This document shows, in pieces, positions 6,760 to 35,135 of a DNA stretch of 35,135 nt. The notes under the pieces are model-generated. The model was not told where the DNA came from, searched no databases, and saw nothing but the letters and a program-made list of their open reading frames with translations. This DNA is from Chiloscyllium plagiosum (taxonomy: Eukaryota). Every line of letters begins with the position of its first letter. The first letter of the stretch is position 1. Location of the stretch: positions 3,393,536 to 3,428,670 of the forward strand of contig NC_057719.1 in NCBI RefSeq assembly GCF_004010195.1. Reading direction: 5' to 3'. The position numbers were made by a program, and so were the translations under genes.

Positions 6760-7045
6760 TTTTTTTGCTTCACACATGGGGTGTGGACATCATTAACAGC
6801 GCCCAGCATTTATTACCCATCCTTAGTTGCCCCTTGAGAAGGTGGGGGTGAGCTGCCTTCTTGAACCGCAGCAGTCCATGTGCTGTGGGTTGACCCACAA
6901 TGCCCTTAGGGAGGGAATTCCAGGATTTTGACCCAGTGACAGTGAAGGAAGGCGATATATTTCCAAGTCAGGATGGTGAGGGGCTTGGAGGGGAACTTGC
7001 AGGGGGTGGTATTCCCATGTATCTGCTGCCCTTGTCCTTCTAGAT
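6760..7045 (-). mobile_element. 3' end of a CR1/L2-superclade LINE
   Basis: Minus strand AGGACAAGGGCAGCAGATACATGGGAATACCACC...CTCACCATCCTGACTTGG matches the plus-strand copy at 9910-9988. Confidence 0.8.
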
Positions 7046-8200: not shown

Positions 8201-9014
8201 CGAGTGACCCCGGCTTCTGGACGAAACATCCTTTCCATGTCTATCTTGTCAAGTCTCTTCAGGATCTTCAGTCAATCTTCAATCAAATCACCCCTCACTC
8301 TTCCAAAGTGGAAGCTGTTCTCTACTATAATTGGCACACGTTGCATTGGGAGTGTGTCCCTTTATGAGGTGAGTCATGTGATATTGATGATGTTCAACGT
8401 TTTACAGAGTGCACGGCATGGGAATTCAATCCTCTCTATTGGGTTGCAACAAGTGACGAGTTTGTTCTTAATTCTGAATGGAGCTGAGTATCTGCCCAGT
8501 ACAGAGTAGAAGCAAACCCATTCTGCTCAACCCTCCTCAAAGGACAATTCCACTCACTCTCGGGATCAGTCTCAGAACCCACTGCTGAACAGTCCCCAAT
8601 ACATTTATATCCTTCCTTAAGCAAGAAGAACAAAATTGAACACAGTGTACAGGATGTATTCTCACTGGTGTCCTGTAACACCAAAGCTAAGCTGTGCTGG
8701 AAATTTACAATACACCTCACACCCAAAGAGAGAGAGGGCTGGAGGTGTTTACAGAGACTTGGGAGGACTGTACAGGTTTGAGGTTAGGACAGGGACCCGG
8801 AGGGAGTGAAGGCTCAAGGAGGCATGCCTGTCATTGTGTTGTCGAAGGATTTCAGATTATCAGCAGCCTGACATGTGGGAGGGGCTTACCGAGATCTCCT
8901 GGTTAGAAAACGAAATTGTAGGTAATGTCACTGGGAGCTAATGTCGGTGAAGGAGCAAACAGATGATTGGGGAAAGGAATTTTGTGCAGGTGAGGAGACA
9001 GGAAACAATATGAG

Positions 9015-9138
9015 AGAGTGAGGTCTGCAGATACTGGAGATCAGAGTCTAGAGTGTGGTGCTGGAAAAGCACAGCAGGTCAGGCAGGTCAGGAGCAGAAG
9101 GATCGATATTTCGGGCATAAGCTCTTCATCAGGAATGA
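9015..9138 (-). mobile_element. Penelope terminal fragment with degenerate hammerhead motif
   Basis: Minus strand TTCCTGATGAAGAGCTTATGCCCGAAATATCGA; same family as 35003-35135. Confidence 0.8.
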
Positions 9139-9139
9139 G

Positions 9140-9335
9140 AATCAGGAAGCTCAGGTATGAGATGAGCTCAGGCCTACAGTGGATGAGAGATGAGAAGCTG
9201 TTACAAGGGTCATCAGACTTGTCAAGAGCAGAGGTAACAAAAGCATGGGACGAGGGGCTAACATGGTTGGCACAGGGGGACGGGCAGACTGTATTACACA
9301 ATAGAGGTGTAGGTGATCTTGGCGATGGACAGGAT
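9140..9335 (-). mobile_element. Degraded L2 LINE fragment
   Basis: Minus ORF segment HAFVTSALDKS...PELI resembles L2 ORF2 HAFVTSRLDYSN...LELIQ. Confidence 0.6.
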
Positions 9336-9394
9336 GGGGTTACGAGTCTCTTTGGTGTTAGCACGGACCAGAAACCCAACTGGATCAGCTTTGT

Positions 9395-9988
9395 AAATCC
9401 AGTGGCTTCAAGAGCAGGTCGGAGACATCCTGTAACTCCCAACCTGATTCCCCAAAGCCTGTCCACCAGGCAAAAGTGAGGCCTGTAGATGCTGTAGATC
9501 AGAGTCGAGAGTGTCGTGCTGGAAAAGCACAGCAGGTCAGAGGGCATTCGAGGAGCAGGAGAATCAGGGCTCATGAAGGGTTTTTGCCCGAAGCATCGAT
9601 TTTCCTGCTCCTCGGATGCTGCCTGACCTGCTGTGCTTTTCCTGCACCACACTCTCATCCCCAAAGCCTGTCCACAAGGCACAAGTCAGGAGTGTGATGG
9701 AATACTCCCAATTCCATGGATGGGTGCAGCTCCAACAACACTCAAGAAGCTTGAAACCATACAGGACAAAGCAACCTGATTGATTGGCACCACATCCACA
9801 AACATCCATCCCCTTCACCAGCAGCATGTACTATCTACAAGATGCACTGCATGAATTCACCAAAGATCCTCAGACAGCATCATCCAAATCCATGGCTACT
9901 TCTTATCTAAAAGGGCAAGGGCAGCAGATACCTGGGAACACCACCTCCTGCAAGTTCCTCTCAGTGACCCTCACCATCCTGACTTGGT
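9395..9988 (+). mobile_element. CR1/L2-superclade LINE fragment, interrupted at about 9473-9657
   Basis: aaggcacaagtcaggagtgtgatggaatactcccca reads KAQVRSVMEYSP, followed by WMGAAPTTLKKLETIQDKA. Confidence 0.8.
9473..9657. mobile_element. Short palindromic Penelope-derived element with central degenerate hammerhead
   Basis: Inverted arms gagagtg..gtgctggaaaagcacagcaggtcag...gaggagcaggagaatc and gattttcctgctcctc...ctgacctgctgtgcttttcctgcaccacactctc around ctcatgaagggtttttgcccgaagcatc. Confidence 0.85.
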
Positions 9989-9989
9989 C

Positions 9990-10903
9990 AGAAGTCACAC
10001 AACACCAGGTTATAGTCCAACAGGTTTATTTGAACTCACAAGTTTTCAGAGTGTTGCCCCTTTATCAGATGAAGTGAAGAGAATCACTCAGGCACAGAAT
10101 TTATCATCAGAGAGATGAAAAGATCAGACAATCTTTTTGAGTGGAGTGTCCATAGGCTGAATAATAAGTCTCTGCAGGTGACCAAGAGTGTCAGACTATG
10201 TGAGTAAAGTGTTAACAGCTGAATGGTAAGTGAAGAGATTACTTATAATCTGGCTAACTGAGGCAGAGAGACAATTATAAAAAAAAGTAAAATAAGGTGA
10301 TGCTGGAGACAAACCAAACAGCTGGAATGACATGATCAGTATAAGACTTGGGCGGCACGGTGGCACAGTGGTTAGCACTGCTGCCTCACAGCGCCAGAGA
10401 CCCGGGTTCAATTCCTGCCACAGGTGACTGACTGTGTGGAGTTTGCACGTTCTCCCCGTGTCTGCGTGGGTTTCCTCCGGGTGCTCCGGTTTCCTCCCAC
10501 AGTCCAAAGATGTGCAGGTCAGGTGAATTGGCCGTGCTAAATTGCCCGTAGTGTTAGGTAAGGGGTAAATGTAGGGGTATGGGTGGGTTGCGCTTCGGCG
10601 GGGCGGTGTGGACTTGTTGGGCCGAAGGGCCTGTTTCCACACTGTAAGTAATCTAATCTAATCTAATCTACTAAAGACTCATATGCTGAGGGTCTAACCA
10701 AAATAACAAGTAATCCAAAACTGTACAAACTAGTTTAGGTAGTGAGATCGCAACAAGTTATCAAGTTGAAGGTGTCAAAACAGGAACGTAAGGAGGATTT
10801 TACAGAACAGTATGGTGGGCTTATACATAGCGTGACATGAACCCAAGATCCTGGTTGAGACTTGTCTTCATGTGAATGAAACTTCGCTATCATTCCCTGC
10901 TCG
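9990..10903 (-). mobile_element. 5'-truncated Penelope-like element (GIY-YIG C-terminus and 3' UTR)
   Basis: Minus strand 10902-10821 translates EQGMIAKFHSHEDK/LNQDLGFMSRYV* (one frameshift); degenerate hammerhead CTGATAAAGGGGCAACACTCTGAAAA near 10045-10070; terminus CCTGTTGGACTATAACCTGGTGTTGTGTGA. Confidence 0.8.
10350..10670 (+). mobile_element. Full-length, young-looking HE1-type SINE inserted in Penelope
   Basis: GGGCGGCACGGTGGCACAGTGGTTAGC A box, GGTTCAATTCC B box, intact CpGs, (AATCT)n tail, and AAGACT on both flanks. Confidence 0.95.
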
Positions 10904-12089
10904 GGGGATGATACCCCTCAGGATTGGCTATCCGTTTCTGCTCGGGGGATGATACCCCTCAGGATTGGCTTTCAGTTTCTGCTCAGGGAGATGATACCCC
11001 TCAGGATTGGCTATCAGTTTCTGCTCAAGGAGATGATACCCCTCAGGATTGGCCATCAGTTTCTGCTCAGGGGGATGATACCCCTCAGGATTGGTTATCC
11101 ATTTCTGCTCAGGGAGATGATACCCGACAGGAGTGGCTATCCGTTTCTGCTCAGGGAGATAATACCCCTCAGGATTGGCTATCAGTTTCTGCTCAGGGGG
11201 ATGAAACCCTTCAGGATTGGCTATCAGTTTCTGCTCGAGAGATGATACCTCTCAGGATTGGCTATCAGTTTCTGCTCGAGAGATGATACCTCTCAGGATT
11301 GGCTTTCCGTTTCTGCTCGGGAGATGATACCACTCAGGAGTGGCTATCAGTTTCTGCTCGGGAGATGATACCCCTCAGGATTGGCTATCCGTTTCTGCTC
11401 GGGAGATGATACACCTCAGGATTGGCTATCAGTTTCTGCTCTGGGAGATGATACCCCTCAGGATTGGCTATCAGTTTCTGCTCGGGAGATGATACCCCTC
11501 AGGATTGGCTATCAGTTTCTGCTCAGGGAGATGATACCCCTCAGGAGTGGCTATCCTTTTCTGCTCAGGGGGATGATACCCCTCAGGATTGGCTATCAGT
11601 TTCTGCTCGGGGGATGATACCTCTCAGGAGTGGCTATCAGTTTCTGCTCTGGGAGATGATACCCCTCAGGATTGGCTATCAGTTTCTGCTCAGGGGGATG
11701 ATACCCCTCAGGATTGGCTATCCGTTTCTGCTCAGGGAGATGATACCCCTCATTATTGGCTATCAGTTTCTGCTCGGGGGATGATACCCCTCAGGATTGG
11801 CTATCCGTTTCTGCTCAGGGAGATGATACCCCTCATTATTGGCTATCCGTTTCTGCTCAGGGAGATGATACCCCTCAGGAGTGGCTATCCGTTTCTGCTC
11901 AGGGAGATGATACACCTCAGGATTGACTATCAGTTTCTGCTCAGGGAGATGATTCCCCTCAGGATTGGCTATCAGTTTCTGCTCAGGGAGATGATACACC
12001 TCAGGATTGGCTATCCGTTTCTGCTCAGGGAGATGATACCCCTCAGGATTGGTTTTCAGCTACTGCTTGGGGGATGATACCCCTCAGGA
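10884..12089. repeat. Minisatellite, about 29 copies of a 41/42-bp unit
   Basis: Unit TTGGCTATCAGTTTCTGCTC(A)GGGAGATGATACCCCTCAGGA; 29 GATGATACC-type cores counted by eye. Confidence 0.97.
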
Positions 12090-12535
12090 CTTCTCCACCA
12101 TGAGTGCCCACATCTGTAAGGAGGCCTGATCTTTGCAGGATATCCCACAAAGTAGTGGGATCATTCTCTCCCTCCTCTGCCTTGTAATATAACCCCGGAG
12201 TGACATACAGCCTGATGGACAAGTAACTGCCACTTTTCACATTAACTGGGCCCTCAGGGGGGTGTCAAGGAGAACTCGAGGATGTCTTTCCTTCATTTTC
12301 CGCTGTGATATGGGCACAGTGAGATCTCAGGGCAAGATCTGGTGAAGGAGATCATTTTCTGCCTTGGGCAGTGACTTACGAAAACCTTTCCATTGGAGAA
12401 AAGCTTCCTGAATATTCTACCATTTTAAGACGGCGCCCTCTTGACCTGGTTTTCCCTGAACAGAGGAAATAGGTTACACAACTAGTCCTGAGTATGTAAC
12501 CCTTCCGGCCATTCTCAGGCCTTTACTTCCCAGGT

Positions 12536-12890
12536 GATAAGACTATCACATGTAGGCCATTCAGCCCATCGAGTCTGCTCCACCATTCAATGACACCACG
12601 GCTGATCTAATAATCCTTAACTCCACTCTCCTGCCTTTAACCCCTAACTCCTGATTCCCTTCCTGATTAAAAATCTGCCTCTCTCAGCCTTGAATATACT
12701 TAATGACCCACCCTCCTCAGCCCTCTGTGGGAAAGAATTCCACAGATTCACTCACTCTGAAAGAAGCAATTCCTCCTCGTCTCTGCCTGAAATGTGTGAC
12801 CCCTTACTCTGAGCCAGTTCCCTCCAGTCCTAGACTCTCCCACAGGAGAAACAACCTTTCCACATTGATGCTGTCAAATCCTTTCCAGCC
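12536..12890 (-). mobile_element. CR1 3' end
   Basis: taggccattcagcccatcgagtctgctccaccattcaatg...gaattccacagattc...gaagcaattcctcctc is a reverse-oriented CR1 3' UTR and ORF2 end. Confidence 0.85.
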
Positions 12891-13574
12891 AATCTGTTGA
12901 CACTAATGCAGCAATAGAAATGAATGTGTCCTCCAGGCAGCGTCTGACAAAGTCTGCTATAACAGAAGCATCATTCCCTCTGCTTACATATACCCCTGAG
13001 GTGTAAACCCCTAAATCTCCAAGTGCATTCCTAACCAGGTCGGATTCCATGAATGAGAGCAAGTGAATGATTAATCATGAACAAGGCACCTCACATTCAA
13101 TCTGAACATCTTTAATTTCCATCTAGGTAGATGTATTCTGAGAAGCAATATCCAGAGAGTCCAACTTGTAGGAAGAGGGTCTCAGGCTGATCTGGGCTTC
13201 AGTCATTATTGTCCTTGATATTTTCTTCCTCTTTAGTTGCTAAAGAAAGAAAACATATCAGTCACAGCAATACATATGACCCAGCAGAAATCCCAAACAT
13301 CCACCCTCTCTCTCCTTCTAGTGGTTCAATCTTTATCAAGACTCAATGAAACAGGTGTCCTTTTGTTCGTCCAACACGGGGAATGGTTACCAGGCTGCAG
13401 CGGTTTACAGCAATTGGCAAAAGACTCAAAGGGAACAGAGCTATGGATCAATTGATTTTTCCAGGAAATTGCAACAATCTGGATTGCTTTCCCTAAATGG
13501 GTGATGGACAAACATAAGAAATAAGACAACAGTAGATCGCATGGTTACTCAATCCAGCTGCCCTTCCCATTAGA

Positions 13575-14799: not shown

Positions 14800-14857
14800 G
14801 ATTTACAGGTGCCGGTGTTGGACTGGGGTGTACAAAGTTAAAAGTCTCACAACACTC
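14800..14857 (-). mobile_element. Penelope extreme terminal fragment
   Basis: ccggtgttggactggggtgtacaaagttaaaagtctcacaacac; also seen at 26745-26790 and continuous with the 9990 terminus. Confidence 0.7.
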
Positions 14858-18708: not shown

Positions 18709-19149
18709 AGAGGATACGAGGTGATTGTATTAAAATAAAAGACTCTGAGGAGGTTTGTCAGGGTGGAGCGGATCATTCACCGCATGGGGAAACCCTCAAC
18801 AAGGGGGCACAAGAGCAACTTCTTCTCTAAGGGAACTGTATTCAGTCAAAATGTCTTCACCAAAGAGCAGTGGAGCCTGGGTCTTTGAACGTAGAGAGTT
18901 AGATTGGTTTGGATCTACCAGGGAATCAAGGATTGTGAAGTGAGAAGCTGTGGATGGTTCAGTGCACACTGGAACGTGCAGTTGACACCATAATCACATC
19001 AGCCATGATCTTACTGAATGACGAGTAGATCCAAAGGGCTGAAAGGCCTTCTCCTGCTGTTTTATGATTCTTTTAATTTTATGTGCTACTTTTCCAGGTG
19101 CATTGCAAATCCAGCACCTGCTTCCCTGCTTTTCCTGAACTTGGAATGT

Positions 19150-19345
19150 CTTATGGAGACAGTGTAAAGGGAGTTTTACTCTGTATCTAACCTTAAGCTG
19201 TCCCTGTTCTGGAAGTGTTTGATGTGGACAGTATAGAAGGAGCTTTGCTCTGTATCTAACCTTATGCTGTTCCTGTCCTGGGATTGTTTGATGGGGTGCA
19301 GTGTAGAGGGAGCTTTATTCTGTATCTAACTCCAAATTGTACCTG
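19150..19345. repeat. About 3 diverged copies of a 69-70-bp tandem unit
   Basis: gacagtgtaaagggagttttactctgtatctaacc..gctgtccctgt..tgggagtgtttgatg recurs; same family as 20130-20530. Confidence 0.85.
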
Positions 19346-20129: not shown

Positions 20130-20530
20130 TAGGAACAGTGTAGAGCGAGCTTAACTTTTGGTTTAAAAGAGTAGAGTGCAATTTCCTGTGTATCTAACCC
20201 CGTGCTGTCCCTGTCCTGGGAGTGTTTGATGTGGACAGTGTAGAGGGAATTTTACTCTGTAACTAACCCCATGCTGTCCCTGTCCTGGGAGGGTTTGATG
20301 CGGAGCAGTGTAGAGGGAACTTTACTCTGTAACTAACCCCATGCTGTCCCTGTCCTGGGAGTGTTTGATGTGGAGCAGTGTAGAGGGAACTTTACTCTGT
20401 AACTAACCCCATGCTGTCCCTGTCCTGGGAGTGTTTGATGGGGAGCAGTGTAGAGGGAACTTTACTCTGTATCTAACCCCATGCTGTCCCTGTCCTGGGA
20501 GGGTTTGATGGGAGGAAGCTTGACTCTGCG
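20130..20530. repeat. Tandem array of a 70-bp unit, about 5.5 copies
   Basis: CTAACCCC(A/G)TGCTGTCCCTGTCCTGGGAG(T/G)GTTTGATG..GAGCAGTGTAGAGGGAACTTTACTCTGTA with period 70 (20261, 20331, 20401, 20471). Confidence 0.95.
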
Positions 20531-21846: not shown

Positions 21847-22025
21847 TTATTTTGTTGCCTGGTCTGAAGTCAGGTTTCAGCTCAATGTCGCTGTTACGGA
21901 GTGCCCCGGGGTATTTTACTTTGTTCGAGGCACCACTAAAATTCAGCTTGTTGTTGTGCCCTGAGTACAGAGTTGAGAGTTTTTAATGTAACTGTGCATC
22001 GCTAGACTTGGGTGATGTCCATTAC

Positions 22026-23202
22026 CTGGTAGGGGAGTGTTCTCGTTGGCTGAATGATGTGTGGCCCGTTTCTTTCTGTGCGGTTTGCTCTGGGATAAGC
22101 AGAGCTCCTTCTCCCCGGCGGCTCTCTGTTTGCTCTGGGATGTGACCGGTGAGTGCTCACCCAGTTTCACACTGAACTGGAGGAGGTGCTCCTTCGGCAC
22201 CTTGGGCTGGGAGCCCCGGGGCTGGTGGTGCCGGGATCGTCGGCACACGTGTGCCCGTTGTGATGGTTTGGTTTGCGGCTGGGCTTTGGTGCCTGGTTGC
22301 CGACTGTAGCGATCTGGGCTCTGGGAGGCCGGTTTAGGTGTCACCGGGCAGCTCCCTGCGGTGCACCTGTGCTGACTGAGGGGTCGGGCGTACTGCTCCT
22401 GGCCCAGCTCAGAGATCTGCGGCCCGGCCTGGTGTATTCGGCCGTCAGCCTGCTGGGGACCACCTTCAAGCAAACGCCCTTCCTCGTCCCGATCCGAGGT
22501 AGGCTCAGACTTCCTGCCTTGGGAACAGCCCTGTTGCTGGCTTCCCTCCTGCTGCTCCTGGGTTTCCTCCTGAGACTGCGCCTCACCGTCTTGTAGACCA
22601 TTGGCAGTTGTCCACTGCTGGGTTTGGTGCTGTACCTGACTGCAATGATGTGGCTTCAAGTCAGGTGGTTGGTCCTTTGGGCTAGACGAGTATTGGCCCA
22701 GATGGTGGCACTGACAGTGAAGCCATCCACCCTGTTGACACTGGTGTTCTTGATCTGGGTAATGCATCAGGGTGTCCAGTAACTGGCCTTGGTCTGCCTG
22801 CGAATCTTGCTGTGAGCAATGAGGCTGATGATTGAGCCACTGACCGTGCAGACAGTGCTGTTTCTGAACTCTGGGCCATCCGGCCTGTGGACTGGACCAG
22901 TCGTCATTGGCGTTGTACCCTGGATCTTCAACCTGCTGGAGCTGGGAATGCTGCAGTTGCTGGTCTCCACAAGCCTGATGGTCGAGCCACTGGCTCTGGG
23001 TGCCCTGGCGTTTTGTGTCCGGCTGGGTCACTTGGTAACCGGCCCACTCCTGGTCTGGGTGCTGAGGCGGACTGTGAGATTGTTGAAGCTTTTTGCCAAT
23101 GCTCTGCAACTCCTCCAGCTGCTCGGGCAGCCAGTGACTCTCCGTCCCAGCCAACTGGCACTCCGGCCTCTCTATAATTCCCATCTCCTCCGGTTTTGTG
23201 TT
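22026..23202 (-). CDS. Exon D (1177 bp, phase 0 to 1), Q/H/S/P-rich low-complexity region
   Basis: Stop-free GC-rich frame (413-aa ORF 21943-23184, extended upstream by NTKPEE); acceptor ctttgtcatttgctttgttcag|AAC, donor CAG|GTAATG at 22025; a same-phase alternative donor ACG|GTGAGG lies at 22586. Confidence 0.85.
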
Positions 23203-23324
23203 CTGAACAAAGCAAATGACAAAGACACTTTAGCTTGTTCTGTCCGAAACGCCGACCGCTTTAGCACAGAAAATGAAACAATCCCTGCTGTAAGAGGTAA
23301 AGGAAAATACTCGTTTTGTCAGAC

Positions 23325-26727: not shown

Positions 26728-26838
26728 CTAAGATTTGGAGGAGCTGGTGTTGGACTGGGGTGGACAAAATTAAAAATCACATAGCATCAGGTTATAGTTC
26801 AACAGGTCGACCTGGTGTTGTGATTTTTCACTTTGTCA
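26728..26838. mobile_element. Short inverted Penelope terminal fragment
   Basis: gacaaaattaaaaatcacatagcatcagg ... cctggtgttgtgatttttcactttgtc inverted arms; same family as the 9990 terminus. Confidence 0.75.
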
Positions 26839-26945: not shown

Positions 26946-27112
26946 TGAAAGCAACAAGTGTTGGAGATCACAGCGGGTCAGGCAGCACCCATGGAGAGAG
27001 AACAAGCTAACATCAGCTCTGATGAAGAGTCAGCGTGACTCGAAACATTAGCTTGTTCCCTCTCCACGGATGCTGCCTGACTTGCTGTGATCCCCAGCAT
27101 TTGTTGTTTTCA
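26946..27112. mobile_element. Palindromic Penelope-derived element with central hammerhead
   Basis: Inverted arms of about 66 bp (26946-27012 and 27046-27112). Confidence 0.85.
27015..27053 (+). ncRNA. Minimal type I hammerhead ribozyme motif
   Basis: AGCT-CTGATGA-A-GAGTC(AGCGT)GACTC-GAAA-CATT-AGCT: 4-bp stem I, intact core, 5-bp stem II; the stem III palindrome is decayed (ACAT). Confidence 0.7.
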
Positions 27113-32227: not shown

Positions 32228-32310
32228 TGAAAATGTGTTACTGGAAAAGCGCAGCAGGTCAGGCAGCATCCAGGGAACAGGAGAATCGACGTTTCGGGCA
32301 CAAGCCCTTC
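32228..32310 (-). mobile_element. Penelope terminal fragment truncated inside the hammerhead
   Basis: Minus strand GAAGGGCTTGTGCCCGAAACGTCGATTC..., lacking the CTGA part. Confidence 0.8.
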
Positions 32311-35002: not shown

Positions 35003-35135
35003 TAAAAACAATGACTGCAGATGCTGGAAACCAGATTCTGGATCAGTGGTGCTGGAAGAGCACAGCAGTTCAGGCAGCATCCGAGGACAGGCAAAATCGA
35101 CGTTTCGGGCAAAAGCCCTTCATCAGGAATAAAGG
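35003..35135 (-). mobile_element. Penelope terminal region running off the window edge
   Basis: Same family as 9015-9138, 9473-9657 and 32228-32310. Confidence 0.85.
35095..35130 (-). ncRNA. Minimal type I hammerhead ribozyme motif with intact core
   Basis: ATTC-CTGATGA-A-GGGC(TTTT)GCCC-GAAA-CGTC-GATT: GUC triplet, ACGT stem III, weak stem I. Confidence 0.75.

What the first reader, a model, noticed from the sequence alone, without database searches (positions are those of the whole stretch)
10884..12089. Minisatellite built from a Penelope truncation junction
Seen: the array starts exactly where the minus-strand Penelope ORF remnant begins (EQGMIAKF...LNQDLGFMSRYV*). Half of each unit, GAGCAGAAACTGATAGCCAA (EQKLIA), is homologous to those first codons. 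The other half, GGGAGATGATACCCCTCAGGA, runs on into unique DNA at the right edge (12069-12089). From recall, EQKLIAKF..H..GLNRD is a Penelope GIY-YIG C-terminal motif. Inference: the 29 units are a chimera of ~20 bp element plus ~21 bp flank, formed by repeated template switching at integration or by later amplification of a two-copy seed. This is notable because Penelope RTs are relatives of telomerase RT.
Basis: partly seen in the sequence, partly recalled or inferred. Interest (0 to 1): 0.75.

Follow-up and report, generated by a model that had tools for sequence, protein, structure and literature searches.

The report
Minisatellite spanning a Penelope element edge
A 41-42-base piece of DNA straddling the cut-off end of an old Penelope-like jumping gene was duplicated once and later multiplied to 29 copies by ordinary repeat turnover, so it is a neat but fairly ordinary transposon-derived minisatellite rather than evidence of telomerase-like repeat synthesis.

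Summary
The array is real (29 units of 41-42 bp, 10883-12089) and the unit is a chimera. Its 20-bp half (B) belongs to a high-copy Penelope-like family. Its 21-22-bp half (A) does not sit in that family: family reads reach depths of about 250-490 on the adjacent element but only 8-17 on the unit. The 29 copies were not written in one go at integration. The 27 inner units carry about 1% private changes against about 10% decay of the element, share recombined variants, and mostly differ from the ancestral state kept by both terminal units. A second species holds the unit at only about 2-3 times single-copy depth. The repeat cut by the element's 3' end does not resume beyond the array and there is no target-site duplication, so the A|B junction may be a deletion breakpoint, not a clean insertion junction. 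Best reading: one old junction-spanning duplication, later expanded as a VNTR. A seed made during integration is possible (about 15%) but unshown. TE-derived minisatellites are well known. The Penelope label rests on structure and recall; no database hit confirmed it.

The parts
10883..12089 (-). Minisatellite, 29 x (A 21-22 nt + B 20 nt); the last B is the start of the element remnant
12069..12089 (-). Outermost A half (41-nt type, identical to the innermost A); joins the right flank at 12090
12049..12068 (-). Outermost B copy, 5 of 20 changes from the array consensus (3 private)
10903..10923 (-). Innermost A half; the A|B' junction at 10903/10902 is the element's present 5' limit
10883..10902 (-). 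B': element-side copy of the B half, 4 of 20 changes from array B
10821..10902 (-). Last 26 codons and stop of the element ORF, with a 1-base frameshift near 10862
   Evidence: contigs of organism B lack one base at 10862 (table 4)
10670..10820 (-). 3' UTR / pseudo-LTR of the Penelope-like copy, first part; high-copy family
   Evidence: depth up to 486 (X11) and 442 (X12)
10350..10669 (+). SINE-like repeat inserted later into the element's 3' UTR
   Evidence: other copies in the window; family loose ends before 10683 match window 10322-10349 across it (table 7)
9988..10349 (-). Rest of the pseudo-LTR down to the element's 3' end; lacks the ~35-nt tail seen in another copy
   Evidence: 9992-10025 matches 26774-26807 at 85%; tail at 26739-26781 and 14807-14849
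10044..10068 (-). Degenerate minimal hammerhead-like motif (CTGATAA...GAAA; one core base off)
   Evidence: read from sequence; no stable fold; not matched by the strict pattern or by Rfam
9905..9987 (+). LINE-like repeat cut off exactly at the element's 3' end; its continuation is missing beyond the array
   Evidence: 88% to 6963-7045; continuation score 23 vs shuffles 21-31, positive control 116
12090..12540 (.). Right flank, origin unknown; not repeated in the window, no protein family found

Best explanation
A single-locus, TE-derived minisatellite whose unit spans a junction. Step 1 (inferred from structure): a Penelope-like copy inserted into a LINE-like repeat. Step 2 (inferred): DNA was lost on the element's 5' side, at integration or later, so that the last 26 codons came to abut unrelated sequence ending in A. 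Step 3 (inferred): one early tandem duplication of 41 bp (A + B) across that junction made the seed, probably by slippage or end-joining helped by the short AAGT repeat that flanks the unit, with loss of one G. Step 4 (shown by variant structure): unequal exchange, conversion and slippage turned over and expanded the inner units; a 42-nt variant spread and the terminal units were left to decay. The array is most likely a neutral VNTR with no function.
For: B is family sequence: loose ends at 10859 (162 and 125 reads) end in the same 8 nt as array B, where B' differs by one; three records in table 5c (2 reads, 2 contigs) skip the decayed stretch and resume on the array's B half. The 42-mer is not family sequence: depth 15-17 and 8-9 on the unit against 184-268 on the 32-nt family block at 10828-10859. 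Turnover after insertion: 13 singleton changes in 27 inner units (1.1% per site) against 18 of 185 majority differences (9.7%) between the element and its family; shared variants in 11, 9, 7 and 5 units; 13 of 54 variant pairs show all four combinations; independent decay simulated at the observed 5.5% never gave a variant in 10 or more units (0 of 1000), and at 10% gave 7.8 pairwise differences against 3.7 seen. Both terminal units keep the same 41-nt A; only 3 of 27 inner units do; private changes 6 of 82 terminal vs 11 of 1134 inner sites, p=5e-4. All 28 B-to-A joints lack the G that both flank and element have there, which points to one founding event. Organism B: one contig fits 10903-10943 at depth 45.9, 2.3 times the median of 18 listed contigs; organism A sums to 26-42 times.
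Against: The seed looks about as old as the element (terminal B halves 6 private changes in 40; array B keeps the family base that B' lost; the duplication joint is present in a second species), so formation during integration is not excluded. The AAGT microhomology does not give the observed joint without an extra 1-base loss. Neighbouring units are not more alike than distant ones (p=0.37 and 0.15). Contig depth is not a copy number and a filter hides records (tool caveat), so the short array in organism B is suggestive only, and B could have contracted. No empty site was seen.
Confidence: 0.7

Rival explanations
1. The two- to three-copy seed was made during integration: the element's RT or a repair polymerase copied B, slipped back onto A and re-crossed the nascent junction. 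Ordinary turnover then expanded it.
For: The seed is old and shared with organism B. Duplications of 16-27 nt of upstream target are known at R1 5' junctions (PMC2718515, passages). PMC3389668 suggests that tandem repetition can be triggered during retrotransposition.
Against: A is not the partner of the 3' target site and there is no TSD. R1 rearrangements duplicate flank only, not flank plus element. Of 17 joints found among 795 and 1378 laid family contigs plus reads, the 15 shown hold one 'goes back' joint, the array's own (2 not shown). TRF lists no array at the other PLE-like stubs of the window.
Confidence: 0.15
2. A and the right flank are cargo or filler of the same complex insertion (captured DNA or part of another repeat), so the junction is internal to a composite element and the unit may exist elsewhere.
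For: The original target does not resume at A. Earlier notes on this genome report Penelope-linked captured DNA and fillers (unchecked). X11 lays about 16 reads on the unit where 3-6 are expected for one 1.2-kb array at a genome size of 3-5 Gb.
Against: Depth on the unit is low in X12 (8-9) and contig sums in X7 fit about 30-40 units. Only two organisms hold a twentieth of the words. No look-alike in earlier findings.
Confidence: 0.12
3. All 29 units were written by the Penelope RT in one telomerase-like run at integration and have only aged since.
For: The array begins exactly at the element's 5' limit; PLE RTs share an ancestor with telomerase RT (PMC8557442, abstract passage).
Against: Shared, recombined variants, about 1% private change in inner units, a derived majority state and a low depth in organism B all contradict it. 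Half of the unit is absent from the element family, so the element RNA could not template it.
Confidence: 0.03

Closest known systems
TE-derived minisatellites in the human genome (Ahmed and Liang 2012, PMC3389668; main text read, parts 1-3 of 4)
   Same: Single-locus tandem repeat seeded in TE sequence and expanded locally over time; 7,276 cases reported, 136 of them partial Alu duplications at the 5' side of an Alu; outgroups hold fewer units.
   Different: Here only half of the unit is TE sequence, so it would miss their criteria (70% similarity to a TE, or overlap by one period); the parent is a Penelope-like element.
Haber and Louis short-flanking-repeat model of minisatellite birth (seen only as described in PMC3389668 and PMC6947457)
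   Same: The unit is bracketed by a short repeat (AAGT, 4 nt; 5 of 6 with the next bases) and later expanded.
   Different: The repeat is shorter than the 5-10 bp of the model and the joint lacks one G.
R1 insertion site rearrangements (Stage and Eickbush 2009, PMC2718515; passages)
   Same: About 20 nt of upstream sequence duplicated at a retrotransposon's 5' junction.
   Different: One extra copy of target only; no element sequence in the duplicated piece, no array.
Non-LTR retrozymes and PLE partial tandems (bioRxiv 10.64898/2026.07.22.740005, abstract and passages; PMC8557442, passages)
   Same: Tandem DNA derived from the 3' region of a PLE.
   Different: Those units are pseudo-LTR sequence with a hammerhead in each; this unit is ORF end plus non-element DNA and has none.
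Repeat-adding RTs: telomerase, DRT2 (PMC12039810), DRT10 (PMC12632851) (search listing only)
   Same: Head-to-tail repeats beside an RT-derived element.
   Different: Their whole repeat is templated by an RNA; here half of the unit is not in the element family and the copies show recombinational turnover.

Membership tests
Penelope-like element (adjacent copy) | ORF with telomerase-like RT and GIY-YIG endonuclease | not testable with these tools
   Only 26 codons remain; no PDB hit, no candidate in the protein search. The motif label is recalled, not from a call.
Penelope-like element (adjacent copy) | High-copy, 5'-truncated dispersed family | tested here: met
   870 and 725 reads laid from about 4% of two runs; depth up to 486.
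Penelope-like element (adjacent copy) | Optional 30-40-bp tail at the 3' end | tested here: met
   A ~35-nt extension follows the same end at 26739-26781 and stands at 14807-14849 but is absent at 9988; feature as described in PMC11167929 and PMC8557442.
Penelope-like element (adjacent copy) | Hammerhead motif in the pseudo-LTR | tested here: inconclusive
   Degenerate motif at 10044-10068 by eye; no Rfam match, z +1.3, missed by the strict pattern.
Penelope-like element (adjacent copy) | Inverted 5'-truncated partners among family copies | tested here: inconclusive
   2 of 15 listed joints are 'opposite strands', one contig each.
TE-derived minisatellite / VNTR | Head-to-tail units of 10-100 bp, locally duplicated, with TE-derived sequence | tested here: met
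   only half of the unit is TE-derived
TE-derived minisatellite / VNTR | Turnover by recombination or conversion among units | tested here: met
   13 of 54 pairs with four combinations; independent-decay model rejected; terminal units more decayed
TE-derived minisatellite / VNTR | Copy number varies between individuals or species | tested here: inconclusive
   Depth hints only: X11 15-17, X12 8-9; organism B about 2.3x, organism A 26-42x
RT-synthesised tandem repeat (telomerase/DRT-like) | Whole unit present in the element's RNA template | tested here: not met
   No family depth over A+B
RT-synthesised tandem repeat (telomerase/DRT-like) | Units born together and decayed independently | tested here: not met
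Non-LTR retrozyme | Type I hammerhead in each unit | tested here: not met
   No motif in the unit
Clean retrotransposon insertion | Target resumes on the far side, with or without TSD | tested here: not met
   Continuation of the cut repeat not found in 12069-35135; longest shared word between the two sides 6 nt, out of register

The most novel reading that the evidence does not exclude
The founding flank+element duplication was laid down during Penelope integration by iterated template switching across the nascent 5' junction, making PLE insertion a direct source of minisatellite seeds; this locus would be a datable fossil of that step, later expanded in one lineage.
Probability: 0.15. Interest if true: 0.55.

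Novelty: new member of a known kind. Interest (0 to 1): 0.22.

Why it matters
How minisatellites are born is mostly unexplained (known models covered 6% of TE-derived cases in PMC3389668). A unit that spans a junction dates its own birth: it cannot be older than the junction, and a related species seems to keep a short form. That makes the locus a tidy case study and a usable VNTR marker. It would matter more only if such junction arrays proved systematically enriched at young Penelope insertions, which would inform the still unvalidated late steps of PLE integration.

Tried and rejected
No whole genome is held for the window, so no genome-wide count or screen was possible. An exact search for the 20-nt B half in metagenome contigs gave 12 loci; none of 12 continues into the element, all look like chance matches in microbial DNA. 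Protein searches with the ORF remnant found nothing. Right flank: Pfam 0 hits in 6 of 6 frames; PDB 3 of 6 frames searched, only two hits at E 0.65; one frame against 1.84 billion representatives gave one hit (E 3.6e-5) to a repetitive bacterial adhesin-like protein, rejected because its repeats inflate the score and tblastn gives E 0.72 at best; another frame gave no homologue and no Atlas hit. A as a fold-back copy of B: only a 5-bp inverted match, folding z -0.3 to -0.4 for array units; rejected. The array's reading frames carry no credible domain (Pfam hits below cut-off). Rfam matches in 8500-13500 are all below gathering scores. Runs X5/X6 were listed with a small share (0.05); only X5 was laid. 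Literature searches for a described PLE-junction minisatellite (listings screened, not all full texts) showed none; subscription journals and preprint supplements are not covered.

Full report
OBSERVATION. The array is there: TRF reports 10886-12089, period 42, 28.9 copies, 90% matches. On the minus strand the order is right flank - (A B) x 28 - A - B' - rest of the element, with A 21-22 nt and B 20 nt. B' (10883-10902) opens a 26-codon ORF end with one frameshift and matches array B at 16 of 20. Ten of 28 full units are 41 nt and 18 are 42 nt. The stretch 12069-12089 is the last A copy, and other DNA starts at 12090.

THE ADJACENT ELEMENT. I laid two raw-read runs and one contig set of the window's apparent species (organism A: X11, X12, X7) and one contig set of a second organism (B: X5) on 10675-10945 at 80% likeness. 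The stretch 10675-10859 is a high-copy family (870 and 725 reads laid; peak depth 486 and 442). Loose ends before 10683 match window 10322-10349, so the element continues across a later SINE-like insert down to 9988. It ends without the ~35-nt extension that follows the same end at 26739-26781 and stands alone at 14807-14849; an optional 30-40-bp tail is a described PLE signature (PMC11167929, parts 1-2 of 4 read; PMC8557442, passages). A hammerhead-like motif at 10044-10068 is degenerate and unconfirmed. No database confirmed the ORF remnant. The Penelope label is therefore likely but rests on structure and recall.

IS THE UNIT A CHIMERA? Yes. Family reads that stop at 10859 (162 in X11, 125 in X12) have a loose-end consensus that I translate by hand as IAKFGTHGDG on the minus strand; its first 8 nt equal the last 8 nt of array B, where B' differs by one base. 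Three rows of table 5c (2 reads, 2 contigs) skip the decayed stretch and resume at 10923/10924, on the array's B half. If the family held the whole 42-mer, hundreds of reads would lie on 10903-10943, as 184-268 do on the 32-nt block 10828-10859; depth there is 15-17 and 8-9, and 19 and 6 joints 'go back 41', that is, these are array reads. The exact homology boundary is not resolved because loose ends are printed to 30 letters only.

IS A THE INSERTION-SITE FLANK? Not shown, and there is evidence against a clean junction. The element's 3' end cuts a LINE-like repeat at 9987 (88% to 6963-7045). In the other copy that repeat runs on for 200 nt, starting with an AT-rich stretch, which fits the AT-rich target preference reported in PMC11167929. 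That continuation is not found right of the array (best score 23, shuffles 21-31, positive control 116), and the two sides share no TSD. So DNA was lost on the 5' side, at integration or later, or A is filler or cargo. The flank 12090-12540 is not repeated in the window and gave no credible protein hit; its genome-wide copy number was not tested.

WHEN WERE THE COPIES MADE? The element differs from its family majority at 18 of 185 positions (9.7%; X11 rows above 50%, counted; indels not counted). The 27 inner units hold 13 singleton changes (1.1% per site) and 48 occurrences of shared variants, the commonest in 11, 9, 7 and 5 units; 13 of 54 variant pairs show all four combinations. Simulated independent decay at 5.5% never put a variant in 10 or more units (0 of 1000) and gave about 32 singletons; at 10% it gave 7.8 pairwise differences against 3.7 observed. 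Both terminal units share an identical 41-nt A that only 3 of 27 inner units keep, and they carry 6 private changes in 82 sites against 11 in 1134 (p=5e-4, which corrects a miscount). All 28 B-to-A joints lack the G present in both flank (AAG) and element (AAG), as expected from one founding duplication. Against a simple stepwise model, neighbours are not more alike than distant units (p=0.37), and all six private terminal changes lie in the B halves. In organism B the depth bins are fitted almost exactly by one contig on 10903-10943 at depth 45.9 and one ending at 10907 at depth 30.8; 45.9 is 2.3 times the median of 18 listed contigs, against 26-42 times in organism A. The first contig spans the B-to-A joint, which exists only after duplication, so the seed predates the split of the two organisms and seems short in B. 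The tool warns that contig depth is no copy number and that records are filtered, so this is support, not proof.

MECHANISM. Shown: chimeric unit, single type of duplication joint, turnover of inner units long after the element began to decay. Inferred: insertion into the LINE-like repeat, loss of DNA on the 5' side, one early 41-bp duplication across the new junction, expansion by unequal exchange, conversion and slippage. I give this 0.70. A seed made during integration gets 0.15: it fits the age of the seed and has a loose precedent in R1 junction duplications (PMC2718515, passages), but the 15 of 17 family joints shown hold no other tandem joint and other PLE-like stubs in the window have no array. 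A composite element with captured DNA gets 0.12. RT synthesis of all 29 units gets 0.03.

COMPARISON AND NOVELTY. TE-derived minisatellites are common and were already proposed to start at or after retrotransposition and to grow slowly (PMC3389668; reviews PMC9659126 and PMC6947457, passages; PMC3648361, abstract). It works like these and is filed with them, with the twist that half of the unit is not TE. It is not a retrozyme (no hammerhead per unit; bioRxiv 10.64898/2026.07.22.740005, abstract and passages) and fails both tests for an RT-written repeat. My searches listed no description of a PLE-junction minisatellite, but they cover open-access text only. Verdict: real, partly well interpreted, ordinary in kind. 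Interest 0.22.

Noticed in passing
window 10883-10923: Three of the four changes in B' make it pair better with the adjacent A (11-bp stem on the + strand, z -1.55): possibly templated quasi-palindrome changes, not significant on its own.
   Followed up: partly
window 10903-10943, run X11: About 16 reads on the unit where 3-6 are expected for a 1.2-kb array; may be a longer allele, a second locus or multiple counting. X7 also shows a unit variant absent from the window (table 5c).
   Followed up: partly
window 12097-12108: The flank next to A reads GTHG on the minus strand, as does the family ORF just after B; probably chance, no homologue found.
   Followed up: partly
window 19142-19330 and 20171-20514: Two related 69-70-bp tandem arrays 1 kb apart (81% alike): a dispersed minisatellite family.
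   Followed up: no
window 9030-9160, 9500-9660, 26948-27112, 32228-32310, 35020-35130: Stubs of other PLE-like families; 9500-9660 and 26948-27112 are inverted-repeat hairpins; intact CTGATGA...GAAA cores at 9132 (-), 27019 (+) and 35126 (-).
   Followed up: partly
window 14807-14849: Tiny stub made of little more than the PLE 3' tail.
   Followed up: partly
window 21943-23229: 428-codon stop-free frame on the minus strand and a 197-codon frame on the plus strand in a GC-rich, skewed stretch; no Pfam hit.
   Followed up: partly
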